Part shown: positions 1 to 40,574 of the stretch, one piece after another
How the letters are laid out: every line of letters starts with the position of its first letter
Numbering within the stretch: position 1 is the first letter of the stretch
DNA from: Zancudomyces culisetae HAW-14-8
Lineage: Eukaryota > Fungi > Kickxellomycota
Reading direction: 5' to 3'
DNA: 64,000 nucleotides
Assembly: GCA_052426225.1 (NCBI GenBank)
Contig: JBNJNM010000006.1
Span: 1,922,001 to 1,986,000 of the forward strand
Translations under genes and position numbers: made by a program
The notes under the pieces: generated by a model
The model's database searches: none
The model's input: only the letters and a program-made list of their open reading frames with translations
What the model was told of the DNA's origin: nothing

Positions 1-990
1 TTTAGCCGCTCTTAAAAGGTCAAAAACGACTTTTAAATCTTTTAAGTGAGTTTCTATACTATCCGAAAAAACTACTATGTCATCGATAAAAACTACAACT
101 GATTTCCACAAGACGGATCCTAGTACCTTTTCCATAAGCCTCTGAAAAGTTGCGGGACTATTAGATAATCCGAAGGGCATCACGTTGTAGCAAAATAATC
201 CCTCACCTGGAAAAGAGAATGCAGTTTTATGTTTATCGGCTTCCTTGATACGGACTTGCCAGAATCCTGACAATGCATCTAATACGCTGTAGATAGTGGA
301 TCCTGCTAGAGCTTCAAAAATGTCTTCTATTACCGGTAGTGGGTAATGGTCCTTTTGGGTCACAGCGTTCAATCTTCTGTAGTCTGAACAGATTCTGATA
401 CCTCCGTTCTTTTTCCAAACGGTCACAACTGGTGCACACCAGTCTGACTTGCATGCCTCAATGACTCCGGCCGTTTCCATGCGTGATAACTCTTCCCTGA
501 CTAGCTGCTTCATTGCTTGCGGTACACGATAGGGTCTCAACTTGATCGGAGCGTTGTTTCCTGTTTCGATCTCATGTTCAATTACATCAGTAAATTCCAA
601 TTCTGTTAGGTCATTCGCCAATATATCCTTATTGTCTTCAAGTAGTTCTGAAATCCTAGAATCTGTTACGAGATCTGCACCAGCGTTCTCTACTCTGCAT
701 ACCTCCTTGGCTATACTTATCATAACTTCATTCCTCAGCTTATCCTTATCTTTACTTAGTTCGAGTGGGACAACGAGGGAATCCTCGTGGACTGGCAGTA
801 TAAGCTCCAAGGTGTTCAAGTCAATTACTGCCGCATGCGTTTTAAGCCAATCTGTACCTAATACCAGTGACTCATTTTTCCCTTCCATTTGTAGTAAGTT
901 TGCGTCAAATCTTATCCCTTTAACTTCCACGGGTACATCTGAGATTTTGTTGGATACATAATGGTGTTTGCCATCAGCTGTTAGTATTAC
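1..990 (-). mobile_element. Ty3/gypsy element A pol fragment (C-terminal half of aspartic protease plus reverse transcriptase); runs off the window edge and is cut at 991/992 by element B
   Basis: Manual minus-strand translation reads VILTADG...LVLGTDWL (protease C-terminus), then CAPVVTVWKKNGGIRICSDYRRLNAVTQKDHYPLP...LDALSGFWQV...MPFGLSNSPATFQRLM...VFIDDIVVFS (RT core). Absent from the ORF track because no stop falls in the window. Confidence 0.92.
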
Positions 991-991
991 C

Positions 992-1478
992 TGTTAGATA
1001 CCAATATTATACACTATAATATTGATATTAACTAATTAACACACAGTTAATTTATAAAAGTTATTATTAATTATACTAGTTTAAAACACACAGTAATAAT
1101 ATAATATTAGTTAATAATATCTTTATTATTGTTAAACGAGATTGACAAACTTAATTGTTCATGAAAGGGATTAGTATTACCTTTTATACAATTAAGTTTG
1201 TACTAAAACTTTAATGTAAACTAAAACTATTAATATAACTAACATTAATAAACAAATAAACTAATATCATTAATATACACAATATTAATGATGATACATT
1301 ATATATTGATCATGTGTATCAATATTAATGTTTTAAACTAATTATTAAGTAATAATTAAATAATATAAACTAATAATTAATTAATATTAATGATACACAT
1401 TTAATATCATTAATATTAATTAATACCATATTGTATTTTAATATACAATATTGTTATGATACATGTGTATTCATAACA
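992..1478 (-). mobile_element. 3' LTR of chromovirus element B (487 bp)
   Basis: TGTTA...TAACA termini; adjoins the polypurine tract and lies about 35 bp after the pol stop; its distal end breaks the element A reading frame. Confidence 0.85.
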
Positions 1479-1490
1479 CTACCCCCCCTC
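1479..1490 (-). promoter_or_regulatory. Polypurine tract (plus-strand priming site) of element B
   Basis: Minus strand reads GAGGGGGGGTAG directly before the LTR TG. Confidence 0.85.
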
Positions 1491-1514
1491 TTAAGGTTAC
1501 TTACTAAGTGTGTA

Positions 1515-4500
1515 TTAATCTGACTCGCGTTCGTTTTCGATCTTACTGAGCCAAAATTCTTGTATTTTTTCGTGAGCGTTAACATCCTGTTCACGCTCCC
1601 AACTTCTTTCTTCTGGTCCATATCCTTCGTAATCAATGTAATAATATGTGGTACCATCAATTTCTTTTGTATCCAAAATTTTGTTCACAACATACTCAAT
1701 TTCATTATTGATGATTACTGGTGATGGTGGTCTGATGTTTGGTCGTATCACTAATTCTGATGTGTGATATTTTTCTAGTAATGATACATGAAATACTGGA
1801 TGTATCTTCATGTTTGGTGGTAATTGTAATTTGAATGTAGCATCATTAATCTTGCTTATAATTTTGTATGGACCAATCTTTTTGTTATCCAATTTGTTGG
1901 AGGGTCTGACAGTTTGTATATTTTTTCGTATTAGCCATACTTTATCACCTATTTTGAACTTTGGATGTTGTTTTCGCTTCCTATCAGCAAACTTTTTTCC
2001 AGTTTTAATAGCATTTTGTAGTTCTTTTTTGATGTCGTCGTGATGTTTTTCCAGTTCTATAACACGGTTTTCAGCACTTGGTATTAACTCTATTGATGGT
2101 ATTTGCGGAGTAAATGAAGTATCAAAACCATATAATGCTTTAAATGGTGACATCTTTATTGCACTGTGATAAGCATTATTGTATGAATATTCAGCTAATG
2201 GAAGTAATTTGCACCAGTTATCTTGCATATAATCACTGTAACACCTCAAATATTGCTCCAATGTTTGATTAGTACGCTCAGTTTGACCATTAGTTTCAGG
2301 GTGATAAGCACTAGAAAGTTTTATTTTTACGTTTAAAAGTTCGTAAAAACGCTTCCAAAACTTGCTTATAAACTGAGATCCTCTATCAGAAATGATCTCA
2401 TCAGGTGTACCATGTAGTTTAAACACGTTTTTAATGTATGCAGTAACAGTTTCGGGTGAAGTCGGTAGCTTTTTAAATGGTATAAAGTGAGCCATTTTAG
2501 TATATCTATCAACAATAACCATTATTGTTGTATACCCATTTGACTTTGGTAAATCTGTAATGAAGTCCATAGTTATAGATTTCCATGGTCCAGATGCTAT
2601 AGGTAACGGTTGAAGTAATCCATACTGTTTATGTCTATTACTTTTATTTTTTTGACATACATCACACGTATTTATGTATTCTTTTACATATTTCATTTTT
2701 TGTTTTATAAAATAGTTTCGATCCAAATTTTTTATTGTTTTTTGTATCCCATAATGTCCAGCTGCACCTGAATCATGAACTTCTTGAAGTAATTGCATCC
2801 TTAGTACATCAGGTACATATATTTTTTCATTAATATAGATTAATCCATTTCTTTTTATAATGATATCAGTATCTTTTAGTTGTTGTTTTAAATCATTTTT
2901 ATCAATATTATTCTGCTCAATATATGTTTTAATGTTGTTTAAAAGTTCAGATTGTGGTATTATAATTGCATTAATAAAGTGTTTTCCCTCAATAATATTG
3001 TGATTTAAAACTTTTGAATCATCACTATTACTATATCTTGAAAGTGCATCAGGTTTACCACTTTGTTTTCCTGGTCTGTAGGTGATGTCAAAGTCATATT
3101 CATATAGTAATAAAGACCATCTTGCATGTCTTCTGTTCAATATTTTTGCATTTTTAAATGATTCTAAATTCTTATGATCAGTATAAATGATGAATTTTTG
3201 TGATGCTCCTTGCAGGTAATGTCGCCATTCTTTAATTGCATTTATGATTGCTAACAGTTCTTTGTCATATATATCATAATTTATTTCAGCTTTATCCAGT
3301 TTATGAGAGTAATATGCACATGGAGCGAGCATCCCATCATCATTATATTGTGATAAAATAGCTCCAATAGCATAATCTGAAGCATCAGTCTCAACTATAA
3401 ATTGTTTTTCAGGGTTTGGATATTGTAATATTGGTGTAGATGTCAACATATTTTTTATTGTATCAAATGCATTTTGCTCTTTGGATGTCCATTCCCACTT
3501 TTTATCCTTTTTTAGCAATTCTGTAAGTGGTCTTGTAACCTTGGAAAATCCTTCAATAAACTTCCTGTAATAATTTGCGAAGCCCATAAACACTTGTATA
3601 TCTTTTGGTTTTGTTGGTGTATCCCACTCATGCACACATTTAGTCTTTTCTGGATCAGATGATATGCCTTTATCACTAATAATATGACCTAAAAATGTCA
3701 CTTTTTTGACGTCAAACTCGCATTTTTCGAGTTTACAATACAGTTTATGCTTCCGTAACTTGCTTAAAACATTTTTAACATGCTCCGTATGTTGATGTAT
3801 ATCAGGTGAAAAGATTAGTATATCATCTAGGTATGATATTGCGTAAACATCCAATATATCTCTTAGTACATCATTAATAAAATGTTGAAAAGTTGCAGGT
3901 GCATTAGTCAATCCAAATGGCATAACTTGATACTCGTAATGTCCATATCTGCATCTAAAAGCGGTTTTAGGTTCATCGCCTTTTTTTATTCTGACCAAGT
4001 TATATGCACTACGAAGATCTAATTTTGTAAATATTCGTGCATCCTTTAATCTATCAAACACCTCATCAATTCTAGGCAACGGATACCTGTTTTTAATAGT
4101 GTTTTCATTCAGTTTTCTGTAATCTACACACAGTCTTAACTCGCCAGATTTCTTTTTTACAAACATTATAGGCGCACCATAAGGTGATTTTGAATGCCTT
4201 ATAAATTTGTTTGCAAGATTCTTGTCGATGTACGACTTTAATTCAGTGAGTTCAGTTTGCGATAGTGGGTATATTGGCCCCCAAAACGGTTTAGAATCTT
4301 CTTTTAAATCGATTCTACAGTCATATTCGCGATGATTTGGCAATATTTCAGCCATTTTTTCATCAAAGACGTCAGTAAATTCAATATATTTTGTAGGTAT
4401 AACAGTAGTAGTAGGAATAGTTACAAATTTGTAAACATTTGAAACAGTTTTGATGTCAGTATCATACTTGAAAAGTATTTTTTTTTCCATTTTTTCATCA

Positions 4501-6323
4501 ATATTTTCATTAATATTTTGTATATTTTCAGTTGAAAAATCATCAATATCCATTGAATTTGTATCATTTTGTATTTTAAAACAATTATCCAAGTTATCTA
4601 GAGTTGTTGCTGTAGTATTAGATGTCATAGGAGTAACTTGATTAGCAGATGGAATAACTATAGGGGTTCTTTTTTTGATATTTTTAACTTTTATAGGCTT
4701 AAAAGTAGGTGTTGATATTGGGTATAACTCTGCATCAAGGTCAAGATTTTTAGTAGTTGTAGTTTCAGTAGTTGGTGTAAATGTATTACTATCAACTTGG
4801 GTAGTTTGAGGTTCAATGGATGTTTCCTTTGTATTTTTTAAATCAACTTTAGTTAATATTTTTTCAATATTTTCTGTATTATTTGTATTTTTTCTTAAAT
4901 TTTTTGTATTTATTCTTTGATAAATATCAGTTGTAATACTTTCAGGTGTGTCACTATTTGTGTTTGAGTTTATGTCTGATGTATTTTCAGCAGCACATGC
5001 TGGTTTGGTAGTGTTATCTTCAATATTTTCATTCATTTTTCCATTTTTAAACTCATTATTATCACTTTTTCCATGAAAAATGATACTTTGATTCTTTTTT
5101 GTAATGTCAATTATTTTTTGTTCTTCATCTTCGCTATCGGATAAAATATATTTTTCTTGTATCTCTTTTATGTTTTGCAAATACATTTGTTGTACGAGCT
5201 TGTTCAACTCACTAGAAGTCATGTTTTCATCAAATTCAATGTCATATTTGTTGAATTTTTTAGCATTTTTAGTTGTATTTTCTTCAATATTTACTTGTTT
5301 TTGTGCATTAATATCCGAATTATTAGTATGTAGTGGACTAAACATGTCATGATCTAGTAAGTATCCATAATTACTATAATCATCTGTTTGTACGGCTTCA
5401 GAGACCTTGTTTTTCTCACGTGATACTTTTTTCTTTACTATATTTTTCATCTTATTTTTTGTTTTTGCACCCGTTTGTGCTACGTTTTTTCCTGATGTAA
5501 ACAAGTATGATTTGATTTTAGACATAATAGTGTTAGAATGTTCAATATCAGATTCTGAAGTGTTGTTTTGTCCAAAATATCTGCTGTTATCATCACTTTT
5601 TTCACTATTTTGATCACTATTTTCACTTATTTGATCGTTATTTTCATCCTCGGATGATACTTCTGGTCGATATATAATATCTACAGGTCTCTTGTGGTGT
5701 ACACAATTGTTCAAACAGTAATTTGAATTAAATAAGATGTCGAAAGTATCCCAATTGATACTTGGATTGTGCTTTTTTAACCATGGCATGCCCAAAATCA
5801 CATGACCATGAACAGATTGAATTGGATGTAAGTTGATGTTTTCTGTGTGATCATTTCCAATTGAAACTTTGATATCATTGTATACATGATTAATACTAGT
5901 TGTACTAAGCATGTTACCGTCAATAGATTCAATACTGAATGGGATGTCAAGTGGTGAAGGTAATAATCTTAACTTTTTTGCGACATTAATGTCGATAAAG
6001 TTCTCAGAAGAACCACTATCAATGAGGCAGTCAACTTGAAATGGTTCTGTGATGTCATTAAAAATATTTACAGAAATAATTGGTCTGTTATATGATGATT
6101 TTGTGTTGTTTTTACTGCAAAACACGTTATCCATAACATGTTTTTTAACCATATTTTCATTTATTTTAAGATATTTTTTATCATTATTTTGTTGTTTAAT
6201 CATTGTATTGTTGCACTCAGCATACAGATGACCTTTTAAATCACACTTAAAACATTTTCTGTTGTTATATAAGTTAATGTTAAGACTTGAATATTTTAAG
6301 ATTAAGTTATTTATTACTATTAA
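1515..6323 (-). mobile_element. Chromovirus (Ty3/gypsy) polyprotein: CCHC knuckle-protease-spacer-RT-RNase H-integrase-chromodomain
   Basis: 1562-aa ORF with LIDSGS protease, YLDD RT, ETDASDYAIGA RNase H, HHCC and DFITDLP..SDRG..E integrase, GPY module and chromodomain EYVVNKIL..YEGYGPEERSWE. The frame stays open upstream of ATG 6203 to about 6323 and encodes CFKCDLKGHLYAEC (6213-6254). Confidence 0.95.
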
Positions 6324-6687
6324 TTATTTAGAAAAATATGGTATTCAATAGCGAATAAGATATTTTTCTCTGAAGTTCTCTTTCGATGAATTTCGAAAGG
6401 GTTTTTATACTTTTACTCCAGAGATTTTTCCATATAAAATTTTCTTAAGTAAAGTTGCTATCAAACTATAAATTTGACTATTAAACTTATGAGTAACTGA
6501 TGTGATTAACTACTGCGAGTTTAGTGTGTCAATGATTGCGTCATTCATGTTATTCTGACAATTCTTTGAATTATTAGTTTCGGAATTCTTTCTAGGTTTC
6601 TTATTTCCTAAAATGGTCTGTGAATATTATTATAACAAATTTCATCGCGAAATTCATTTTTTACTTGACTTGGTTAGATTAATTTAA

Positions 6688-6760
6688 TAATTTGTACTTA
6701 GTTACATTTAATTAATTTGTACTTAGTTACATTATAGTAATTTGTATATGGTTACAATTT
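6688..6760. repeat. Short tandem repeat (TAATTTGTACTTAGTTACATT x2 plus one degenerate copy) in the gag/pol junction region
   Basis: Directly visible direct repeats about 25 bp apart. Confidence 0.7.
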
Positions 6761-6815
6761 CATTTTGTAACCTACTTGATTTGGTCATGGAGAATTATAA
6801 TAAACATGAATTTAT

Positions 6816-7628
6816 TTAATTTATTTTAAAACAATTCCTAACATAGTTGTTAGTGTTATATCTGTTTTGGGGCCGATTCCTTTGGTTAGTAACTTCTAGT
6901 AGGCATGTTTTTAGATCATTAAACATGAATAAAAGTTCCTCATACTTTTTATCTCCTTCGTTTTTAACGGGCTCTGAACTTATTTGAGACTTAATTGTGG
7001 TGCATATTTTATTTAGTCTCTCGGTTTCCATAATGGAGGTAATTGCCTCTTTATATGTTTTGCACCTATCACTCAATATTCCTTTTTGTGCTTCCGGGTC
7101 CATGGCAGCAAAAAGTAGTTTAAACTTTATTGCATCATCTGAAATTTTAGCTGTATTAAAGAGCTTTTCAATTTTTGAGACTAGCTCTTCCACGTCTTCT
7201 TCGGGTGTCTTTTTAAGCAGCTGTAACTGGTTCCAGGCTATAAGTTCACCTTCAGGACCTTCAAACTGAAGTATGAACTTGTTTTTGATTTCACTCCAAG
7301 TGTTATCTTCGCTACACTCGCGTTCAAACCATAGTAGTGCACGACCTTCGAGGTATAATTCCATAAGATCTACCATATCTTTATCTTTCCAACCATTTCT
7401 TCTAGCACACAGTTCATATCTTCTAATCCATTTAGATGGATCCATATTGGAGTTTGTGCTGAAAATTTCTGGTTCAATCAATTTGTAATTAAGAATCATA
7501 GGATTACACATTGTTGGTGCAGTATTATCACTGGCCTGATTTTGTATGAGCCTCTGCTTTTCTTAGTGTGTTTCAACAGCCTTTTCTGCCACTGCTTTTG
7601 CGGACGACTTGATTGCTTTTTCTGACAT
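6816..7628 (-). mobile_element. Retrotransposon gag (capsid) of element A, with a premature stop and truncation at the zinc knuckle
   Basis: DPSKWIRRYE..NGW..YLEGRALLWF..WSEIKNKF capsid pattern; in-frame ATG at 7628 with TAA at 7563-7565; ORF ends RNCFKIN* at the first Cys of the expected knuckle. Confidence 0.85.
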
Positions 7629-7670: not shown

Positions 7671-7688
7671 GCCTAGCTGGGAGCGCCA
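7671..7688 (-). promoter_or_regulatory. Primer binding site of element A
   Basis: Minus strand TGGCGCTCCCAGCTAGGC starts 4 nt after the LTR CA end and is complementary to a tRNA 3' end ...CUGGGAGCG-CCA. The isoacceptor is not determined. Confidence 0.8.
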
Positions 7689-7692
7689 AAAC

Positions 7693-8219
7693 TGTCGTAT
7701 AAAATTTACTATTGTTGCTATGTATACGATTTATTGTGAAATTTGAAGGTAAAGAACGAAACAGAGGAAATTAGCTTTGCTTATATCTAATTTCCGTTGT
7801 ACTAATAAATAAGTTTATACTAATAAATACTACTAAAAGTTAGGATAATAAGTAATTGTTAATTTTGCTCACAATAGGATGTTCGGTTGATCCTATTGTG
7901 AGAAGATTAACCGCCGATCCCGCGATTCTCTCTAGGAAAATCTTATTGTGTAAATTTTCCCGACACAACAACAACATGTTGTATGCTTAGTTCTATCCAA
8001 GCTAAACTATTGGATAAACAGCATACAGCTTCTCAAACACCGAATAACCACCGTTATCTCGGGTGTTCGAGCTAGTAATCTGGGATTACTAGGGTGAAAT
8101 TATCACCCAAAAAGTGAGTCAATATTAAGTTTTGATTATTTTATTTTAAGTTTCTATTATATAAAGTTCTAATAAAATAGCTAGTCAGGTACTAGTATAT
8201 TACTAGTAACCTCACCACA
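7693..8219 (-). mobile_element. 5' LTR of element A (about 527 bp)
   Basis: TGT...ACA termini (plus strand tgtcg...ccaca), adjacent to the PBS. The outer boundary is inferred from termini only because the partner LTR is outside the window. Confidence 0.72.
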
Positions 8220-8673
8220 AGTTTGGTGGTTTTATCTTTTTATTTTTAAAAGTTATTCATTAAATAAAATACAAATTAGCTCTAAAATACTTGATTTTAC
8301 TCTATAAAATTGAAATTTGTGATTTGAGCAAAAACCTACCTAAAACCAAAAAAAAACATAGGTAGTGAAGCGTAACACAATTTTCAAAGGGTATCAGAAA
8401 GGTATCAGAGTCTAATTTTTGGACCAAAATTAATTGTTTTGCACACCAAATTTTAGGAGTTGGGCGTAATTTTACCCAGTTTTATCGCATTTATTGAAGT
8501 AATAAATACATAAAACTAAATTAAATATAAGCTAAAAAGGTAGGGTTGACTGGTTAAATAAAGTAAAACTTATTCCAGTAATAATCCCCCTCTATTAGCA
8601 GAACTTTTTGTAGGTTTAGTTGCGGAAATTTCCTGAGAAATTTTGTGCAAACTAAAATTACAACAAACACAAC

Positions 8674-8746
8674 GCCTTCTTGGCTCAGTTGGCAGAGCGT
8701 CTGCCTAGTAAGCAGAAGGTCGTCGGTTCGATTCCGACAGAAGGCA
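8674..8746 (+). tRNA. tRNA-Thr(AGT)
   Basis: Acceptor stem GCCTTCT/AGAAGGC, A box TGGCTCAGTTGG, anticodon arm TCTGC-CTAGTAA-GCAGA, B box GGTTCGATTCC; 73 nt; T6 Pol III terminator just downstream. Confidence 0.97.
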
Positions 8747-9933
8747 CATTTTTTAAACATTTTTCATATATAATTTATATTTTTACACTATTTTTTCTTT
8801 ACTAAACATTATTAGTTTATATTATTTTTACAGAATCATCTATAATATTACAAAGTCGTTATTTCGATTTATCTCTCTTTCCAATAATTTTCATAATTTC
8901 ATTATTAATTATTACACTTTATCAACTAATTTAAAGATGTTAATGTTGAATTTTAACTCTAGTTTCAATATTAATAAGATTAAATTAATGTTCTTATTGT
9001 AATAATAGTAGATGTATTAAGTTATCTGATATATTTTTCAGCTAATGTGATGGCTGAGTTTGGTATTGCACTGATTGTGTCAGTTATACTCAGGTCTCGG
9101 ATCACTTAACTAGTTCTGTTTGCCGTAATATGAATGTTTTTAATAACTTTTATTATTGTTGTAATAATAATAAAACACAAAGTAAACTATCTCAATGTAG
9201 TGTTAATTTCAATTACTAAGTATGTAAAAAACGTATATGTAAAGTATATTCTCATAAGAAAGGCTCCCCCTGTTTATTTTCGTTGTCCACTTCGCTTTTA
9301 TTCACTGATCGTTCAGATGTTCACTTTACTATTATAAATATTTAGGTATAAAATAACTACAAGTTAATTGGTAGTTATATTATGCTAAGGAATCGCAATT
9401 GATTCGCTAGCAAAAAGTATGTAGCCGTTATGCTACAATATTTAACTTGATAATTTTTTATGAACTTTGTATAGCTCAGATCTTATGGATCTTAGTATCT
9501 AGTCTTATAATCCATTTTTGTGTTATCACCTTATGCTCAATTTATTTTAATTTACTTGTATATCTTATATTTACTATCGCTAAATGGTTAGATTTATTTC
9601 AGTTTGCATGTATTTCATGTTTTTAATACCTATTATTTATCTTTTAGAATTATTTCAATTTAATTGGTTATTAGGTGTATTTGTTTTAAAACATAATTTG
9701 CTATCAAAAAGTTATAAAACCTAATACTCCAAAATAGCATATTCGGTTTGGAAGTATTTTTGACCAATTAGTTTCTACGTCATTAATTTAATTGCCTTCA
9801 CTCATTTTTTTTAGACTATTTACCCCAATTAAACATATATTAATATTTTAACAATTATTTATAAACCATCCTGGTTTTTTATTTTTCTTTAATTTATGTT
9901 TTGTGAATTGAGCTTTATTCTTGAGATTCGAAA

Positions 9934-30550: not shown

Positions 30551-33500
30551 ATGGAAACACAAATGATGGGAAATGTCCAAGTGCTAAGAGCAGAGGAGAT
30601 AATGAGCAAAAAAAGAGCCAGTCCAGAGGCATCTGGGGGTTCTGGAAGCGATCTTAGCTTAGGGCTGCAGAATAAGGATAAAAAGGAGATGGTTGGACAA
30701 AAAAAGGTTATATTGTGTGTGATTGTAATCGAAAACTCAAAACGAATAGAAAGTGTTTTTCCAAAGCTTTATAGCGAGGTATTAGAGAAGATTATAAGGT
30801 GAGTAAGGTGAAATAAAACATGATAAACAAGAAACGGGGAAAGCAAGAGAGGGAAAAAATGAGAGCAAGATACTAACTAAAAAATCAATAAATGTAGAGA
30901 GCTGAGGACGCCAGTGTTGGTGACGGGTGTAAACGTACCAATAAAGGTGACACCAGTGGTTAAAATAGGAGTGGTATTTTATGGGGATTACTCGCCAATG
31001 TCAAACAATGCGGTGTTATCAAAGTACTTTACGACGAACTATCGAAAGTTTGGGATAGAAATGCTGAGACATGAGTTTGATGTAGGAGGGCATATCAGGA
31101 GCGCGGTTTTGGAGGGGTTGGTAGGAGCGCTTGAAATGATGGATGACTTTGCGGATTTTGATGAGGATGCAAAAATAGTAGATGTGCACTCTAAACATTG
31201 TGTAGTGGTGGGGGGAGCATTGCCGTACGGAATTGAGGGCCTGCTTATGCAAGAGCTAGCGGGAAACAATGGTGATGAGAGCAGTGCCAGACTAATACAG
31301 GAGCTTGGATGGAGACAGACGGGTGTAGGAGTGTTGGAAGAGTACTGTCGCGAGAACCAGCGAAGAGAATATGATGGAACAACGCTGTCTAAAGCATTGG
31401 ATTTGATTAGACAGCGGGCGGTGAATTTTTCAGCGGTTGCGCTAACCAGTAAAGAAGGAGAATATTTCAGAGTGATGATCAGAAAGGGTAGCAGTTCAGG
31501 TCGGCAGCCGGTTCTAGTTCCTAGTGGACAGACAGGAGGATTCCCGCTGTATACTACAAATATAAATATTGGACAGTCAGAGGCTGAAGAAGAGGAGGTA
31601 CTTGGCGGACCAGAAAAGAAAGTAAAGATAGACTCTACAAGCGAGGCAACGAAAATTCAGGAGGTAGAAAGTAGAAATGATACAACTACAGTCACAAACA
31701 CAACAGTAACAGCAACAGCAACAGCTACTCCAGCTGCAGTTCCAACTACGGGAGTAGTGGCGGACACGACCGCGGGTTCGGCTGCGAGTTCAGGAGGAGA
31801 GGCGCAAGTGGATGAGTCGGGTATACAGAACAGAGATGGAGCGCCTGAGTTGGGTGTTTCAACAGCAACGACAATAGCAACAGGAGCAGGAGCAGGAGCA
31901 GGAACAGTAGCAACACCAACAGTAATAGCCACACCAACAGAGGTACAGCAAGATTCAAGAGGAACTAGTGAGAGTCGGAGCGTGGAGGGAGGTGAGGCAG
32001 CAGGAATAATGCCATCTATATCACGTAGGGGCCGGGGAAGTAAGGCGGCATCGAAAAAGGGATCGCCTCGCAGTACCAAGATGGCCAACAAGAAAATGGC
32101 ATCGATATCACCGGCACCAGTTAGTAAAACTGAGGGAGGAATTGGAGAGAGGCCAGTACAGACACAAGAGCAAATGGCCAATGCGGCTGCAATGGTGATG
32201 GGTGGAGAGGCAGGTTTGGGTGCGGGGCTTGCAATAAACACACGGGTAGGAGCATTAGCGACACCAAATGGCGCAACAGTTTCAACACCAGCAGTAGGAA
32301 CGCCAGTTATACCCATAACAACAGCAACAGTAACAGGTGCAGGTGCAGGTGCAAGTGCAGGGCAAACTCAGAACCAGGGACAGGAGGGTGTACCAACAGC
32401 AACAGCAACGCCAACGCCAACAGTAACCACAGCAGCGACACCAGTAACCACAGCAGAGGCAGCAGCAACACTTTCAGCCTTTGTGACTAAGATCAAGGCG
32501 CTAGAAGCCCAGATTTCACAAGTTGAACAGCAACAACAGGTGCGGGTAAGTCAACTACAAAAGTTACAACAGGTCGAAGAGTTCAAAAACACGCCGGGGG
32601 GTACAACAGCAGCACAAATGGCACAGGCAGCACGACAAAAGGCCCTGTTGGTTCAGGAATGTAGAAACATGCAGATTATGCAGCAGACGCTTGTACAACA
32701 GTTGGGAGCAGCTAAACAGCAGTTGCTTCAACACCCACTTTATAATCAAATGCTGAAACAACAACAGTTACAACAAGCTCAGCAACAACAACAGCAACAA
32801 CAAGCTCAACAGCAAGCTCAACAACAAGCTCAGCATCAGGCACATCAACAACAACAACAACAACAGCAGGCTCAACAACAAGCTCAGCATCAGGCGCAAC
32901 AGCAACAACAACAGCAACAGCAGGCTCAGCATCAGGCGCAACAGCAACAACAACAGCAACAGGCTCAACTCCAGCTTCAACAACTTTTGAGTCAACAACA
33001 AAAGTTAAAGAACAGAGAGCAACAAGGACAAGAAAATTCGATGATGCAGAACCCATTGTTTGCACAACTACAAAACCAACTGCAAACACAAACACAAGCA
33101 CAGATACAACAACTTCAAGAGCTACAAAGTCCTCAATTGGTACAGACAGGAGCAACTCCAATACCAACATCACTACCAATGTCGGGAAATAAAAGCCAGG
33201 AAAATATTATGGGTTCGCCAAAGGCAGTGAGGCAGCTACAACAGCTACAGCAAAACACGATGTTTTCAAAGACAGTGACACCATCGCCTAGCGGAGGGAC
33301 CAATTTGATGATGCAAGGAAGTATGAGTGAGGGACAGAATCAGATGGCAGGGTTGAGTGCAGTAATGGCTCAACAACAAAAGAACAAGTCGCCAATGGAT
33401 CAGCAACAACAAGCACAACAGCAGCAGCAGCAGCAGGCTCTTCAGAGGACAACATCAAACCAGCAAGTACAACAACAACAACAACAACAACAAGGACAGG

Positions 33501-35599
33501 GACAGGGACAGGTGTATGCACCAAGTCCAGCGGTTGGTCAAATCACACATCAACAAGCAGTCCAAACAGTTGTAAGGTTGTCACAAATGGTTAATCGAGA
33601 ACCCAAAGTGGTGGTGGCGATGAGTGCGACAGAACTAGCCAATTTATTGCTGGTTTCCAACGCTCAAGACAAGCAGCAAAGTCTTTCTACAGCCCAGCAC
33701 GTGCTGTTGAACACGTTGACTAAGTATCGTGCGCAGTACAACGACAATGAGGTGTTTATGCAGTCGATAGCGGCGGCGGCAGCAGCAGCACTGGCTCAGC
33801 AAGAAGGTAACAAGGGGGTGCCACGACCAGAGGCAGGCGGCGAAGTTGTACAGCAGAAGATGAACTTGGGAGGGCGTGAGCATCAGAAGGCGGTTGAGTC
33901 ACCAAAGATAGCAGAGGGAGCGCCAAAACACCAAAGCATGGTTCAGTTTGGCACGGGCAAAACCAACCATTTGCTTAGGTCGGATACGGGAGATTCATTC
34001 CAAGTGTCGAATTTCTGGAAGGGAGTGATTATCAGTGCAGCACGGACGCCAAATGGCAAGCTGACAGAAATGGTGATTCCAGCAACGTCAATAGCTATGG
34101 CAAGCGAAGGTAATCTGATCAGCGATTGTGTGATCAGCCAGTGGCCGGCCCAGTTAAATGTTACAGGGCTGCTAAACATCAGTGCGTCGCAGGTTAGCGA
34201 GTGGGCAAAAGTGGTGCGAGTGCCACAGGTTGTTTTTATTCGCAGTTCCGATGCAGAACAAAAGTTGACGGGTGCGGCGTTTGGGGGATACACGCTGTCG
34301 CAGAATGAGTTGTCGTACAATTTTGATTCGTTTTGTTCCACGCTCAAGCAAGGTTCGTATGTCGGGATCATTCGGTTCAACGAGCCATCGGCACGGCCGG
34401 GAGAGTTGTTTGGTATTATGTTGGTTCCACTCAACGAGTCACTGCTTGGATTTGTGTTTCTCAAACAGCCAATTCCAACTCATTTCTGTGATATGTCTAG
34501 TCAGCTGACACCTGCCATTTCGGCCCAGAAATTGATTACTCCTCAGCTCAAATCGGCTGAGGTTATGAATACGAATATGAATACGAATATGAATATGGCT
34601 ATGGCGATGAATACGTTTAGTCCTGGAACCAAGCATTCCCAACCACTTTCTTCATCTGCTGTAAATGCCAATTTGTTGTCTCCAAAATCCAAAACTCAAA
34701 CTCCTTTATCTGCAAGTACTCCTCTAACTATTTCTTCAAATATAGCAAATACAAATATTCAATCTGAACTAATTCAACAACAACAACAACATCAACAATT
34801 ACAACAACAACAGCAGCAACAACAACAACAACAATTACAACAGCAGCAGCAACAACAGGCTCAACAGGCCCAGCAACAACAACAACAAGCACAGCTTCAG
34901 CAATTACAACAGCAGCAACAGCAGCAGCAGCAACAGCAGCAACAACAACAACAACAACAGCAGAAATTACAGCAACAACACCAACAAGCTCTTCAAAGAG
35001 CAATGTCAAACCACCAACAAAACTCAGCATCACTTGGCCAAAATCTGTTATTTAATTCTTCAGATCTTTCAGCTGAAACGTCTTCATCTAAACAGTCAAA
35101 CATAAACCCTGGTTCTACTCAGTTTGCTAATCTTGCATCGCCTGCCCAACAATCCAACTTTTCGATTGGGTATAATTTAACTAATGCCTCTGTAAACTCT
35201 AATGCCAACTCTAACGCTGCTTCCAATGTAAATCCAAACACAAATCCAAATGCGAATGCGAATGCGAATGCGAATACAAACACCAATTCTAATTCCAATA
35301 GTGCAGGCACAGGCACAGGTACAGGTACAGGTACAGGTACAGCTACTCCCAGTATTGGTTCCAATTCCAACACAACGGCCAATGCCAATGCGGGTGACTC
35401 AATAATGTCATCAAATGTTTCGTCTACACCAAACTTACAACAGAAACAGAGCATATTATCATCAACGGCAACAACAGCCAGCCAACAAATCCAGTTGTTC
35501 CAACAACTTGTGCAGCATTATGTTACTCAGGGATATTCCTTGGCTCAGGCGCAACAAAATGCCAAGTTGCAGATTCAATTTCATTTACAACAACAAGCT

Positions 35600-35632
<33 letters not shown>

Positions 35633-37186
35633 GCTCAGCAAAAAGCCCAGCAGTTACAAAAGCAACAACAACAACAACAACAAGCTCAGCAGCAACAACA
35701 ACAAGCTCAGCAACAACAGTTACAACAACAACAACAACAACAAGCACAGGCTCAGGCACAAGCTCAGGCACAGGCTCAGGCTCAGGCTCAGGCACAGGCA
35801 CAAGCACAAGCACAAGCGCAGGCACAAGCACAAAAGGCCCAACAAGCTCAACAACAAGCTCAACAACAACAAGCCCAACAACAGGCCCAACAAAAGTCTC
35901 AACAGGACTCATCATTGTCTGCATCAGCTGCCTCACCAGTAGACTTAGTTTCGTTGTTTGCTGCAAATGGTATCAATTTATCAACTGATCAAATTAACCA
36001 GCTTCGTGCTCTTCATCCATCTCAACAAGCTACTTCCCTACAAATTCTTTTGGCCCAGAAACAACAACAGCAACAACAACAACAACAACAACAACAACAA
36101 GCTCAGCAGCAGCAACAACAGCAACAACAGCAACAACAGCAGCAACAACAAGCTCAACAAGCTCAACAACAAGCCCAACAACAAGCTCAACAGCAAGCTC
36201 AACAACAAGCTCAGCAACAACAAGCTCAACAACAACAACAACAACAGGCTCAGCAGGCACATTATATGTCAGAAAATAAAAGCACAGGCAGCAATGCCAA
36301 CATGAGTTTAAACAATCCACTGGCTCAGCTGAATATCCAATCGCTTAACAGTTTATTTGCTAATGCTAACGCGGGTGGAAATGTTGGTAATCTTCCTAGC
36401 TCTCTATTACTGAATAACCTCAATGCCTTGGCCAATTCTGGAGCCAAACAGAATGTCATGAGCTCTGTTCATTCGCTATCTCAATCACATCAACATGGTC
36501 AAAACCAAAGCCAGGCTCAAAGCCAAAATCAGAACCAAAGCCAAAACCAAAGCCAGAGTCAAACTCAAAACCAAAACCAGTCCCAAACTCAAGCACAAAC
36601 TCAAGCACAAGCACAAGCACACGCTACACATGCCGCTGCTCATTCACATCTACGTGGTACTCCGTCATTATCTGCCCAAAACCCAAATACCAATGCCAAC
36701 ATGGGGATGGGTGTAAACATGAATGCAATGAACATGAACGCAATGAACCTTGGCGGGCTGGGTGGACTTGGGATGAACATGGGGGCGATTGGTATGAATC
36801 CCACAGTTTCTTCTGGGGGGAATTCTGGCGGGTTTAACATTTCTGCGGCAAACCCACTTGTTTCCCCTCTGCTGCAATCTGGACTTCTTTCTGCTGCTGC
36901 AGTAGGCAATCCTAATGCTGCTGAGGTTCTGCTAGCATCCCACAGCCAAAACGCGAGTGCTGGTGCTTCGTCTGCGACTCCTGGTGCTTTAAGTACTCCC
37001 GGAATTACTGCCAACACAGCAACTCCTACTCCTACTGCTGCTAATGCCAATCCCAGTGCGAATGCAAATGCAAATGCTAATGCGAATGCTGCTACACCAG
37101 GATATGGTCTCAATAACATTACTCCCCAACAGTATCAAATGTGGCGCCAGTGGCAGCTTTCACAGAACCAATTTTTCAGGCCTTAA
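30551..37186 (+). CDS. MED25: Mediator subunit MED25-like protein (VWA domain, ACID-like domain, very long polyQ/QA tracts), about 2180 aa, intron 30799-30897
   Basis: VWA: CVIVIENS..VFPKL..IGVVFY..FDVGGHIRSAVLEGLVGALEMMDDF..KHCVVVGGALPY. ACID-like: FWKGVI..WPAQLNV..VGIIRF..MLVP..LLGFVF. Start codon uncertain (30542 or 30551). Confidence 0.75.
32755..36260 (+). repeat. Coding CAA/CAG polyglutamine and QA repeats (about 32755-33000, 33400-33510, 34774-34990, 35588-35905, 36056-36260)
   Basis: Directly visible trinucleotide and hexanucleotide repeats. Confidence 0.95.
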
Positions 37187-37850
37187 AAGGAAGAAAGAAG
37201 AAAATATAAAAAAGGGGCGGGGGGGGAGAGAGTCTTGATCTTTGTGACTTATTTTAGACATTTATATATTTATATTTTTACTACATGTTTTTGTCTTTTA
37301 ATGATTCTTCGTATTTGTTTATTTTGTTTATTTTTTTATATTATATTATATTATATATATGTTTTTAACAATTATTCTGTTATAGTAATATTAAGATTGA
37401 AACATGATGGTTTTTATTTATTATTATTTAGTTCAATCCATGAGAGCCAAATACAATACAAACTCTCTCCCCTGCTTCTCCAAATATATATAAAACTTTT
37501 GTATTATTTACAGTATATTTCAATATATTTGTGTAAATTATATGCACTGATTTACTAATTCTTGGGATTTGGATTAATCCACGAAAAAATAACCTAATAA
37601 TTACATATATATATAAAATTTTTTTTTTAGATGAAAGCGAGTGAGTGGTGAATACTAGTAAAAATTAGCAAACATTTAATGAGCAATATTGAATGAATTG
37701 AATTAATTGAATTAATAATAAATATTAATCCTCTACAAATCATTTCTAGAACCAGCACATAACGACTAAACATAGAAATAGAAATAGAAATAGAAAGTGA
37801 ATTAGAAAAAGAAAAACAAAAAGGGGATAAACAGGGACGGTAAATAAACG

Positions 37851-40574
37851 ATGCGAATAACAATCAAGGGCGGAGTTTGGAAGAACACAGAGGATGAGAT
37901 CCTCAAGGCAGCAGTGATGAAGTACGGCAAGAACCAATGGGCACGTATTTCGTCGCTGTTGGTCCGCAAGACGCCAAAGCAATGCAAAGCGCGATGGTAC
38001 GAGTGGCTGGATCCGAGCATCCGCAAGCTGGAGTGGTCGACGGAAGAAGATGAAAAGCTGTTGCATCTGGCCAAGCTGATGCCGACCCAATGGCGAACGA
38101 TTGCACCGATTGTTGGTCGTACGCCCGCGCAGTGTCTGGAGCGGTACCAAAAGCTGCTGGATGATGCAGAGGCCCAGCTTGGCGGTGGCGCGGCGGGTGC
38201 AAAGGGTGGCAGTAGTGCGGCTTTGGCGCTACAGGGGCCGGGTGCCGAGGCTGAGCCGGGAGTTGCTGACATACCACAATACCGCCGGCTACGAGCAGGC
38301 GAAGTCGATCCCGATCCCGAGACAAAACCCGCACGACCGGATCCGGTTGATATGGATGAAGACGAATTGGAAATGTTGTCTGAAGCTCGTGCTAGGCTCG
38401 CAAACACGCAAGGAAAAAAGGCGAAACGTAAAGCACGTGAACGGCAACTTGCGGAGGCTCGTAAATTGGCCGGGTTGCAACGGCGCCGTGAGCTGGTTGC
38501 GGCGGGTATTTTGGCTCCTGGTGAACAGTTGGCACAGACTTTGGCACGCAAGAAGGCACGGAAGCGTGGAAATGTATTGGTGGACTATAACCGAGATATT
38601 CCATTTGCAAAAGCGCCATTGCCGGGGTTTTATGATACAAATGAGGAATTAATAAAAGATTCCAAGAGTAGCACTAGTCGCAGTCGTGGCTCTGCTAGTG
38701 GTTCAGTGTCATTGAGTGAAGTTGAAGAAAAGAAAAAATGGGAACTTGAACAGGAACTCGAGGAACAACAAGATGCAGAAAAGGGAAAAGGAAAAGCAAA
38801 AGGAAAAGGAAAGGGCAAAGAAAAGGCAAAAGAACGTGATGAACAAGAGCGGCAGGAACGTGCAATGGCATACTTGCAGGCCAAACTTAACAAACAAGCA
38901 GTCGAGAAGGAGCAGCTTGATCGTCTATACAACCGACCCAGGCTGGACCTACCAGCTCCACAAGTCAGCGACACAGAAATGGAGACAATTGTCAAGTTGG
39001 CGCAGCAAGGTGAGAGTGCACAGCAGCTCGTTGGCAGTGGAAGTAACCAAAAAAACGAAGAAGAAGAAAACAGCGATATTGGTGGTAGTAGCAATGTGGC
39101 GGGAAATTTGTTGTTGGGTAGTTATTCTAAAAAGGCTAAAGTCGACCAGATTCTTTCATCTGCGCAAAAGGTCGATAAAAACACAGTAATGGTTGAGGCT
39201 ATGAATCTGGTCGGATTGACAGCACAGCAGACACCATTGCTGGGTGAAGAAAACACACCATTGCATACTCAACTAGGTACTGGATATACTGGCATCACTC
39301 CACGCTCATCAGTTACACAGACTCCAAGCTATCTGTCAACATCAACCGTGTCTACAACCGATGCTGTATCTGGACAGAGGCGGGAATCGAGCCAACAAAC
39401 ACCCTCAGTTAGAGATGAATTTGGTCTTAACACGCCCAGACAGTCTGCAACAAGTTATTTGCAGACAAAGAAAAACCCATCCCTAATGATTTCTCGGGCA
39501 TTGATGAATTTGCCAAAACCCAAAAACCAGTTTGAAATAATTGTACCTCATTCTGAAGATGAACAGTCAGGCGATTCGCAAACTATGCAAGTTGATGGGA
39601 ATGATTATGGTAACAGTGAGCAAGATATGGAAATTGTACATAAACAACAACTTGCTAAGCAACGCAAACTTCAACAGCAAATACAGAACCGACGTTCAAC
39701 ACCCATAAAACGTGGATTACCAAGACCTTCTATCTTTCAATCACTTATACCTGATACTAATACTGGTTCCCACTCTTCCAAGGTTAATTCTAGCAGTGGA
39801 GCAGGGAGTGTTGATGATGTCGCGCGTGATTTGTTACAAAAATTCTCATCTATACAGCAGCTGCAACAGCAACAACAGCAACAGTCCAATGCAAAGGTTA
39901 GAACAACTGCTGATGGCAATGATGTAGCTCTGCGAATGATTGATGCCGAAATGGCATTGTTAGTAGCCAACGACTGTACCGTCAGTTCCGAACCTTCGTT
40001 TTCTACCAACAGTCAATTTGGAAACCTGGATGTATTTGAGGATAAGGAGTTGCAAGCAGCTCGTGGCTTGATTACCGAACAACTGGCTACTGAGTATCCC
40101 AACACGTCTGATTTTTCCAATTCACATACACACAGTACCATTGGCTCTACTGCTGATATAGAAGAGAACAAGAAATTGCTTGCTAGTAGACAAAAGACAA
40201 TGATTGAAATGGCTCAACAAGCCAACAAACTGGAGAAAAAATTACATGTTGTGTTGGGTGGATATGAACGATTGAGTCAACAGAAGGCCTTTTCTTCTTT
40301 TTCAAATACCAATACCAATACCAACTCTGCTAATAATAATAATAATAATAATAATAATGGTGGTGGCAAGTTGTATGAACTTTTTAATTTGTATGAAAAT
40401 ACCGTTATGCAACTCCGTTCATTCCATGCTCTTCATACCAACGAACTTAATGTTGGTATTCCAGTTCGTGTTGCTGACTTGACTGAGCGTGTTCAGCAAC
40501 TTGCACATACTGAGCGGACGTTACAGCAGCGATATGCCGATCTTTTGAGCACTAGGAATGGATTATTGGAGTAA
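37851..40574 (+). CDS. CEF1: Pre-mRNA splicing factor Cef1/Cdc5 (tandem Myb repeats)
   Basis: IKGGVWKNTEDEILKAAVMKYGKNQWARISSLL..DMDEDELEMLSEARARLANTQGKKAKRKARE. Confidence 0.98.
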   Translation: MRITIKGGVWKNTEDEILKAAVMKYGKNQWARISSLLVRKTPKQCKARWYEWLDPSIRKLEWSTEEDEKLLHLAKLMPTQWRTIAPIVGRTPAQCLERYQKLLDDAEAQLGGGAAGAKGGSSAALALQGPGAEAEPGVADIPQYRRLRAGEVDPDPETKPARPDPVDMDEDELEMLSEARARLANTQGKKAKRKARERQLAEARKLAGLQRRRELVAAGILAPGEQLAQTLARKKARKRGNVLVDYNRDIPFAKAPLPGFYDTNEELIKDSKSSTSRSRGSASGSVSLSEVEEKKKWELEQELEEQQDAEKGKGKAKGKGKGKEKAKERDEQERQERAMAYLQAKLNKQAVEKEQLDRLYNRPRLDLPAPQVSDTEMETIVKLAQQGESAQQLVGSGSNQKNEEEENSDIGGSSNVAGNLLLGSYSKKAKVDQILSSAQKVDKNTVMVEAMNLVGLTAQQTPLLGEENTPLHTQLGTGYTGITPRSSVTQTPSYLSTSTVSTTDAVSGQRRESSQQTPSVRDEFGLNTPRQSATSYLQTKKNPSLMISRALMNLPKPKNQFEIIVPHSEDEQSGDSQTMQVDGNDYGNSEQDMEIVHKQQLAKQRKLQQQIQNRRSTPIKRGLPRPSIFQSLIPDTNTGSHSSKVNSSSGAGSVDDVARDLLQKFSSIQQLQQQQQQQSNAKVRTTADGNDVALRMIDAEMALLVANDCTVSSEPSFSTNSQFGNLDVFEDKELQAARGLITEQLATEYPNTSDFSNSHTHSTIGSTADIEENKKLLASRQKTMIEMAQQANKLEKKLHVVLGGYERLSQQKAFSSFSNTNTNTNSANNNNNNNNNGGGKLYELFNLYENTVMQLRSFHALHTNELNVGIPVRVADLTERVQQLAHTERTLQQRYADLLSTRNGLLE

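What the first reader, a model, noticed from the sequence alone, without database searches (positions are those of the whole stretch)
992..1478. LTR B is a near-continuous chain of hairpins with a recurring ACAC motif in the loops
Seen: inverted repeats tile the LTR. Examples are caatattata/tataatattg (1002-1024), acaaacttaattgt/acaattaagtttgt (14 bp perfect, 1146-1201), atcattaata/tattaatgat, atattgat/atcaatat, a perfect 20-bp stem attaattaatattaatgata/tatcattaatattaattaat (1376-1424), atattgtat/atacaatat, and a terminal tgttatga..tcataaca hairpin (1452-1478). In otherwise almost pure A/T DNA, many loops carry (A)CAC or its complement GTGT. Inference: this may be a selected stem-loop or cruciform array (protein-binding loops, RNA packaging or dimerisation, small-RNA source), or the footprint of RT template-switch palindrome generation. 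I do not know of a described LTR architecture like this.
Basis: partly seen in the sequence, partly recalled or inferred. Interest (0 to 1): 0.8.

Follow-up and report, generated by a model that had tools for sequence, protein, structure and literature searches.

The report
Hairpin-packed end of fungal retrotransposon
The end repeat of a jumping gene in an insect-gut fungus is packed with perfect DNA hairpins, far more than chance gives, likely built by copying slips rather than by selection, and whether they do anything is untested.

Summary
992-1478 is the 3' LTR (minus strand) of a chromodomain Ty3/gypsy element in a Harpellales fungus (Zancudomyces culisetae or a very close relative), nested in another gypsy element. 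Seven perfect stems of 8-20 bp with short loops occur against about 1 expected; 5 of 7 loops carry CAC/GTG; folding z is -6 to -9. 'Near-continuous' fits only 1266-1478 (80% covered; 36% elsewhere). Both strands fold equally, stems almost lack G-U pairs, the loop motif points both ways, and the central hairpins are direct or inverted copies of one module, which favours template-switch duplication and arm homogenisation over a selected RNA fold. Structured LTRs are not unique: the unrelated LTR-like stretch next door and 7 of 30 related families fold well, and maize Sirevirus LTRs carry palindrome arrays; but no relative approaches this density of perfect stems and the ACAC loop is not shared. 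A hairpin at the very start of the LTR recurs in 5 of 33 related families (0.4 expected). No second copy was obtainable, so covariation is untested. New variant of a known kind.

The parts
992..1478 (-). 3' LTR of a chromodomain Ty3/gypsy element (487 bp, 16% G+C, TG...CA, 5-bp terminal inverted repeat)
   Evidence: follows the PPT at the same register as in related elements; composition; ends where the open frame of the host element's protease resumes
1452..1478 (.). H9: hairpin that pairs the first 8 nt of the LTR; loop holds CATGTG and the palindrome ACATGT
1428..1451 (.). H8: 9-bp perfect stem, loop without the motif
1376..1424 (.). H7: 20-bp perfect stem, loop CACATTTAA
1339..1358 (.). 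H6b: 8-bp stem near the centre of a degenerate palindrome 1281-1417 that mirrors H6 onto H7
   Evidence: (self-BLAST, 67% over 144 nt)
1303..1325 (.). H6: 8-bp stem, loop CATGTGT (motif inverted)
1266..1292 (.). H5: 11-bp stem, loop ACACA; centre of a degenerate palindrome 1222-1335
   Evidence: 72% over 117 nt
1217..1424 (.). block of related 30-60 nt modules opening with TAAACTAA (at about 1217, 1257, 1334, 1366)
1145..1201 (.). H4: 14-bp perfect stem enclosing a candidate TATA box (TATAAAAG, 1188-1181 on the minus strand)
   Evidence: TATA role inferred
1122..1127 (-). single AATAAA, candidate polyadenylation signal (not above chance in so AT-rich a stretch)
   Evidence: role inferred
1034..1092 (-). 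H2 (7-bp stem 1034-1052, loop ACACA) and a second TGTGTG at 1092-1087: GT-rich tracts downstream of AATAAA, two 34-nt direct copies
   Evidence: (D4, 74%); downstream-element role inferred
1002..1024 (.). H1: 10-bp stem, loop CAC, extending imperfectly towards the LTR end
1479..1492 (-). polypurine tract
   Evidence: sequence; same tract before TG in related elements
1515..6323 (-). uninterrupted frame of 1602 codons: CCHC knuckle, protease, RT, RNase H, integrase, GPY, SH3-like, chromodomain
1..991 (-). pol of a second Ty3/gypsy element, entered in mid-protease, into which the element is nested
   Evidence: 43% identical to the other RT
6816..7562 (-). gag, likely of the second (host) element rather than of the chromovirus
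   Evidence: no match to 120 chromovirus-type polyproteins
7672..8400 (-). PBS-like tract (7688-7672) and an unrelated LTR-like stretch from 7693 (far end not fixed), itself a chain of hairpins

Best explanation
This is the 3' LTR of a fungal chromodomain Ty3/gypsy retrotransposon whose upstream (likely U3, promoter) part is packed with perfect inverted repeats, likely built and kept perfect by polymerase template switching rather than selected as an RNA fold. Shown: the LTR identity, the excess of perfect stems, their strand symmetry, and that the central modules (1217-1424) are direct and inverted copies of one another. Inferred: a short AT-rich module with an ACAC core was duplicated in tandem; fold-back template switches (by reverse transcriptase on the single-stranded intermediates every LTR passes through, or by the host replication fork) then copied one arm onto the other, giving abrupt, mismatch-free stems and sometimes flipping the loop, which is why ACAC and GTGT both occur. 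The two TGTGTG tracts near the far end would be ordinary GT-rich elements behind the polyadenylation signal. The array would act, if at all, as an AT-rich promoter-upstream region, like the palindrome region of Sirevirus LTRs, tolerated or mildly useful rather than a dedicated machine.
For: Both strands fold equally (z -8.1 plus, -7.2 minus; local folding -8.8 and -6.9). One internal mismatch among 113 confident Watson-Crick pairs; G-U pairs 2 of 109 (plus) and 4 of 106 (minus) confident pairs. Motif sites: 5 on the plus strand, 2 on the minus strand. Nested degenerate palindromes 1222-1335 and 1281-1417 and an 80% direct repeat 1224-1276/1367-1416. Shared G/C-containing 11-mers: 9 direct and 8 distant inverted, against about 1 each, 0 of 300 trinucleotide shuffles. 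3 of 55 module pairs related at p <= 0.01 under both nulls, all in 1210-1426. ACACA and ACACAT are not enriched in 29 related LTR families. Template switching is reported to homogenise arms and invert spacers (PMC8604942, passages) and to make whole perfect hairpins in one event (PMC10710096, abstract).
Against: The 10 nt on either side of the seven motif sites are no more alike than in 4-mer shuffles (4.0 vs 3.8 and 3.8 vs 3.6 matches, p about 0.3), so common descent is not shown for H1, H2 or H9, and the 5-of-7 loop placement (0.1-0.3 expected) is left partly unexplained. 52 of 55 module pairs did not pass both nulls. A hairpin at the LTR start recurs in unrelated families (5 of 33 vs 0.4), which could mean selection. 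CACATG, present in two loops, is twofold enriched in related LTRs (14 vs 6.8, 6 of 300 shuffles). Perfect strand-symmetric stems are equally expected of a selected DNA cruciform. No second copy was examined, so no template-switch event was caught in the act.
Confidence: 0.55

Rival explanations
1. Selected DNA-level cis-regulatory array: the inverted repeats and their ACAC(ATG) centres are binding sites or cruciform-forming units of the LTR promoter/enhancer, with CATGTG as an E-box-type site for a host bHLH factor (E-box and Cbf1/CDEI names recalled, from no call).
For: Densest part lies upstream of the only TATAAAAG; 5 of 7 loops carry the motif; two exact CATGTG in the first 300 nt vs 0.1 expected; CACATG 14 vs 6.8 and TCACATG 8 vs 1.7 in 29 related families; Sirevirus palindromes lie in the cis-regulatory region (PMC4728375).
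Against: CACATG ranks only 40 of 2010 hexamers and was picked after seeing it in one of the tested families; only 2 of 7 sites are full CATGTG; ACACA is not enriched in relatives; the TATA box is a single hit with p about 0.06.
Confidence: 0.2
2. Selected RNA or single-stranded DNA structure for reverse transcription or packaging: the terminal hairpin next to the PPT helps plus-strand priming, and complementary loops (ACACA in H6/H9, UGUGU in H5/H2; palindrome ACAUGU in H9) kiss to join the RNA ends or two genomes.
For: Loop pairs are complementary over 5-6 nt; LTR-start stems of 7 bp or more in 5 of 33 related families vs 0.4 in shuffles (0 of 200), 1.4% of 142 other LTR TGT sites and 0.5% of 198 pol sites; 5'-3' pairing is needed for Ty1 reverse transcription (PMC3592414, passages).
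Against: Kisses are weak (-2.9 to -4.6 kcal/mol as bare duplexes) and are the automatic result of loop inversion; no G-U bias to the transcribed strand here or in relatives (6 G-U vs 8 A-C); 28 of 33 families lack the long terminal stem and mean pairing at the LTR start (0.52) is close to that at other TGT sites (0.44-0.46); no Rfam match.
Confidence: 0.13
3. Hairpins serve as, or are tolerated as, a source of small RNAs that silence the family, as proposed for Sirevirus palindromes.
For: A 20-bp perfect stem approaches Dicer-substrate length (inference); precedent PMC4728375 (abstract and Discussion).
Against: All other stems are 7-14 bp and weak one by one (-1.7 to -8.3 kcal/mol, apart from H4 at -16.3 and H7 at -18.8); this would be a consequence of the array, not its origin.
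Confidence: 0.05
4. Artefact: chance pairing in 84% A+T DNA, or an assembly/amplification error.
For: Very low complexity; the 5' LTR is missing and the gag upstream does not fit, so a mis-join near 6324-6815 is possible.
Against: Six kinds of shuffle do not reach the observed coverage; 11 AT-rich host windows give z -2.5 to +2.9 and at most 28 nt in perfect stems, and four stretches of 8-16% G+C from related loci give z -4.1 to +0.1 with coverage inside their shuffle range; the LTR has clean ends and sits behind an unbroken 1602-codon frame.
Confidence: 0.05

Closest known systems
Palindrome region of maize Sirevirus LTRs (Bousios et al. 2016, PMC4728375; abstract and first part of Discussion read)
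   Same: Several hairpin-forming palindromes in the cis-regulatory part of an LTR; sequence differs among the palindromes; origin unresolved, reverse transcription suggested.
   Different: Copia of plants, GC-rich palindromes, siRNA hotspot shown; here Ty3/gypsy of a fungus, 16% G+C, perfect stems with a recurring loop motif, no small-RNA data.
Fungal chromoviruses (Tcn1-like and related; Novikova et al. 2010, PMC2864245, passages read)
   Same: PR-RT-RH-IN-chromodomain order, PPT directly before TG, TG...CA ends.
   Different: No hairpin array is mentioned in the passages seen ('inverted repeat' 0 occurrences); clade not placed by a tree here; 5' LTR, PBS region and own gag are missing from this copy.
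Quasi-palindrome template switching (Abraham and Hazkani-Covo 2021, PMC8604942, passages; Monttinen et al. 2023, PMC10710096, abstract)
   Same: Arm homogenisation, spacer inversion and one-step perfect hairpins match the anatomy.
   Different: Described for host replication at single sites, not as a tiled array in an LTR; no before/after pair is available here.
Stem-loops at LTR ends: Sire/HIV PPT-exposing stem-loop and U5-IR (Benachenhou et al. 2013, PMC3601003, sections 12 and 16 part 1 and passages read); Conserved Hairpin Site of fungal GalEa elements (PMC5445492, passages)
   Same: Hairpins at or beside LTR termini with a proposed role in reverse transcription.
   Different: Those pair LTR with flanking internal sequence or lie after the 5' LTR; H9 lies wholly inside the LTR, 3' of the PPT, which stays unpaired.

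Membership tests
Ty3/gypsy chromovirus | pol order protease-RT-RNase H-integrase | tested here: met
   Pfam scan
Ty3/gypsy chromovirus | chromodomain and GPY/F motif at the integrase C-terminus | tested here: met
   PF00385 E 6e-9; GPY at residue 1484
LTR (3') | PPT directly upstream, TG...CA ends with short inverted repeat | tested here: met
LTR (3') | matching 5' LTR | tested here: not met
   no second copy in the window; the stretch at 7693 onward is unrelated
LTR (3') | target-site duplication | not testable with these tools
   the element's 5' end is absent; no genome held
Tcn1 clade / Tf1-type self-priming elements | phylogenetic placement; PBS complementary to the RNA 5' end | not tested
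   no tree built; the sequence after the 5' LTR is missing
Sirevirus-type palindrome region | Copia (Sirevirus) element with GC-rich palindromes | tested here: not met
   Ty3/gypsy domain order; 16% G+C
Sirevirus-type palindrome region | array of hairpin-forming palindromes in the LTR's cis-regulatory part | tested here: inconclusive
   array shown; position upstream of TATA rests on one motif hit
Sirevirus-type palindrome region | siRNA hotspot | not testable with these tools
   no sequencing run listed
conserved structured RNA | covariation among homologous copies | not testable with these tools
   no alignable homologue among 167 loci (four weak AT-rich hits, best 68% over 172 nt)
conserved structured RNA | strand-specific fold with G-U pairs; match to a known family | tested here: not met
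   no Rfam match up to E = 1

The most novel reading that the evidence does not exclude
Fungal Ty3/gypsy LTRs carry a selected, sequence-free structural code: a hairpin that closes on the first bases of U3 right behind the PPT, independently written in unrelated families, and in this element an expanded array whose complementary ACACA/UGUGU loops join the two ends of the RNA (or two genomes) for strand transfer, the element renewing its own stems by template switching.
Probability: 0.12. Interest if true: 0.65.

Novelty: new variant of a known kind. Interest (0 to 1): 0.35.

Why it matters
If mutational, it is an unusually clean natural record of template switching inside an LTR, in a genome with a long-read assembly and about 3 Mb of retroelements (PMC12611240), where arm conversion and loop inversion could be counted copy by copy; that would address the open question, raised for Sireviruses, of how LTR palindromes arise. 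If selected, the recurring hairpin at the PPT/U3 border would be an overlooked cis-element of reverse transcription in chromoviruses. Either way it concerns the non-coding end of one retrotransposon family; no new gene or pathway is implied.

Tried and rejected
No genome is held for the window. No sequencing run was listed as holder of 992-3500, DNA or RNA: no evidence either way. An exact pattern across the PPT/LTR border found 0 viral contigs. LTR B against 82 loci gave no hit and against all 167 loci only four weak AT-rich hits, so no alignment, covariance model or covariation count was possible. Rfam: no match. A 14-nt motif from H7 gave 3 window matches at 2 mismatches, not above chance (20 of 100 shuffles). 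The idea that all ACAC loops descend from one unit was tested and not supported outside the central block. The idea that ACAC loops are a clade feature was rejected. The idea that 7693 onward is the partner LTR was rejected: no similarity beyond short AT-rich matches. The gag found no longer relatives at E <= 1e-8 (weak evidence), and the 6250-6900 stretch matched no related protein (best E 0.21). CpG decay as the source of ACA/TGT runs was considered: CpG is low in the LTR (O/E 0.31) but rests on very few C and G, and pol is unbroken; not pursued. The first PPT-calling script had a scoring fault at the edge of its range and was replaced. Earlier findings: none for this genome or sequence.

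Full report
Context. The window comes from a Harpellales gut fungus: the CEF1 frame at 37848-40571 is 99% identical over 75% of its length to a Zancudomyces culisetae protein, the next hits being Smittium at 42-43%. On the minus strand, read from right to left, lie an LTR-like stretch (from about 8400 to 7693), a PBS-like tract, a gag frame (7562-6816), about 500 bp with stops in all frames, an unbroken frame of 1602 codons with CCHC knuckle, protease, RT, RNase H, integrase, GPY and chromodomain (6323-1515), a polypurine tract (1492-1479), the stretch in question (1478-992), and then the second half of a protease and an RT of another Ty3/gypsy element. Related elements put TG at the same place behind a near-identical tract, and the other element's frame resumes exactly at the CA end, so 992-1478 is a 3' LTR nested in a second element. 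It has no partner in the window, and the gag does not match any of 120 chromovirus-type polyproteins; the simplest reading is a nested insertion followed by a deletion that removed this element's 5' LTR and gag (inferred; a mis-join is not excluded).

Observation. Folding z is -6.2 as RNA and -9.0 as DNA, 0 of 100 shuffles. Seven perfect stems of 8 bp or more with loops up to 12 nt cover 193 nt; shuffles keeping 2- to 5-mers or local composition give 25-60 nt and 0 of 500 reach the observed coverage, the 20-bp stem or the five CAC/GTG loops; the count of seven stems alone is reached by 0, 1, 8 and 12 of 500 for k = 2 to 5. In a scan of the whole window in 487-nt steps the two best stretches are this LTR and the next is the LTR-like stretch at 7751. 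Coverage is uneven: 170 of 213 nt in 1266-1478, 99 of 274 nt in 992-1265.

Anatomy. The minus strand has one TATAAAAG (1188-1181), one AATAAA (1127-1122) and two TGTGTG tracts behind it (1092, 1045), the usual LTR order, though neither motif is above chance in this composition (p 0.06 and 0.80). On that inferred map the dense array is U3, H4 straddles the TATA box, and H1-H2 are U5. A G/T-rich stretch as probable downstream polyadenylation element is noted for LTRs in PMC3601003 (passage), which would account for two of the seven motif sites.

DNA or RNA. The two strands fold equally (z -8.1 and -7.2; U3 part -5.8 and -5.9). Among 113 confident Watson-Crick pairs there is one internal mismatch. 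The motif lies on the plus strand five times and on the minus strand twice. In related LTRs internal mismatches are 6 G-U and 8 A-C among 43, so no strand bias there either. Rfam gives nothing. This points to DNA-level symmetry or to a mutational origin, and away from one selected RNA fold; the numbers of mismatches are small.

Internal kinship. Self-comparison shows nested degenerate palindromes (1222-1335, 72%; 1281-1417, 67%) and a direct repeat (1224-1276 and 1367-1416, 80%). G/C-containing 11-mers recur 9 times directly and 8 times inverted at a distance, against about 1 each (0 of 300 shuffles). Of 55 pairs of modules, 3 are related at p <= 0.01 under both a plain and a palindrome-keeping null, all within 1210-1426; 4 more pass one null only. 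Against my reading: the flanks of the seven motif sites taken together are no more alike than chance, so descent from one unit is shown only for the central block. Template switching is reported to homogenise arms and invert spacers (PMC8604942, passages) and to make perfect hairpins in one event (PMC10710096, abstract); RT template switches yield duplications and are favoured at hairpins (PMC3187697, passages; inverted repeats are not mentioned there).

Relatives as controls. No close copy could be had. Four scans gave 167 loci of distant relatives, 33-55% identical in pol. Of these plus the window, 110 held the integrase end, 68 had an automatic PPT call, and these fell into 35 families; a few calls (L085, L115, L155) look doubtful and were kept. 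For the first 200-300 nt behind the PPT, 7 of 30 other families (29 automatic plus L142 added by hand) have local z of -3 or lower, one (L136, -6.4) lower than LTR B (-4.8), and one (L088) owes it to a simple repeat; but perfect stems cover 170 nt in LTR B and at most 58 elsewhere (L142, 37 expected). The unrelated LTR-like stretch at 7692-8400 folds with z -6.7 to -8.5 and has stems of 7-13 bp without ACAC loops. So structured LTRs are common; the density of perfect stems is what is special. In 29 families ACACA and ACACAT are not enriched; CACATG is twofold enriched (14 vs 6.8, rank 40 of 2010) and TCACATG fourfold (8 vs 1.7), a weak lead chosen after seeing it.

LTR-start hairpin. Like H9, 5 of 33 other families (window and one too-short locus left out) have a perfect stem of 7 bp or more starting in the first four bases, against 0.38 in shuffles (0 of 200) and 0.5-1.4% at other TGT sites; 28 of 33 do not, the excess at 5 bp is not significant (8 vs 4.4, 17 of 200), and mean pairing probability is only slightly above other TGT sites. 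Of seven starts checked by hand, three (L142, L105, L132) have 9-10 bp stems and four do not; these were picked by eye and are not counted in the test.

Loops. ACACA loops (H6, H9) are complementary to UGUGU loops (H5, H2) and H9 holds a 6-nt palindrome, but the duplexes are weak and follow from loop inversion. Ty1 needs a 5'-3' pairing for reverse transcription (PMC3592414, passages), which is the precedent for the bold reading.

What is known. Palindrome arrays in LTR cis-regions, hairpin-forming, fast-evolving and of unresolved origin, are described for maize Sireviruses (PMC4728375, abstract and first part of the Discussion). Hairpins beside LTR ends are described for Sire, HIV and fungal GalEa elements (PMC3601003, PMC5445492). 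I found no description of an AT-rich perfect-hairpin array in a fungal Ty3/gypsy LTR, nor of a hairpin wholly inside the first bases of U3, in the listings of six searches; only listings were seen for the papers not named above, the library lacks most subscription journals, and no supplements were read. PMC12611240 (passages) reports about 3 Mb of retroelements in the long-read assembly without describing families.

Verdict. Real and well above chance; an extreme, AT-rich, loop-motif-bearing variant of the palindrome-rich LTR, most likely the product of tandem and fold-back duplication (0.55), with a selected DNA element (0.2) or a structure for reverse transcription (0.13) still open. One copy cannot decide it; the family's copies can.

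Noticed in passing
window 981-991 and 1171-1181: The 11 nt of the host element directly beside the LTR end recur exactly inside the LTR, in the loop of the 14-bp stem just behind the candidate TATA box. Only 94 of 62491 11-mers from the rest of the window, and 4 of 49681 with three or more G/C, match the LTR. Noticed after the fact; unexplained.
   Followed up: partly
window 7693-8400: An unrelated LTR-like stretch (30% G+C) is itself a chain of hairpins, z -6.7 to -8.5, with a 13-bp perfect stem at 7868-7902 and no ACAC loops. Two hairpin-rich LTR families side by side may point to a host-wide tendency.
   Followed up: partly
window 6324-6815: Stretch between gag and the CCHC-pol frame with stops in all frames, three 25-nt tandem copies (6683-6757) and a 17-bp imperfect hairpin (6330-6369); no match to related proteins. 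Likely the junction of two elements or a mis-join.
   Followed up: partly
window pol frame, residues about 210-660 (5700-4350): About 450 residues of low-complexity N/K/T/E-rich sequence between protease and RT, with the frame unbroken.
   Followed up: no
window 8674-8747: A tRNA-Thr(AGT) gene lies a few hundred bases from the LTR-like stretch; insertion near tRNA genes is known for some gypsy elements (recalled).
   Followed up: no
L142 5709-6350: A related element with an LTR of about 8% G+C that opens with a 10-bp stem (loop GACACT) and is likewise nested in another element's pol; z -4.1, perfect-stem coverage within the shuffle range.
   Followed up: partly
L105-L167: 63 loci of Ty3/gypsy retrotransposons sit in contigs of genomes labelled bacterial or archaeal, presumably eukaryotic contamination.
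   Followed up: no
window 30881-37186: A 2101-codon glutamine-rich frame without a Pfam match.
   Followed up: no
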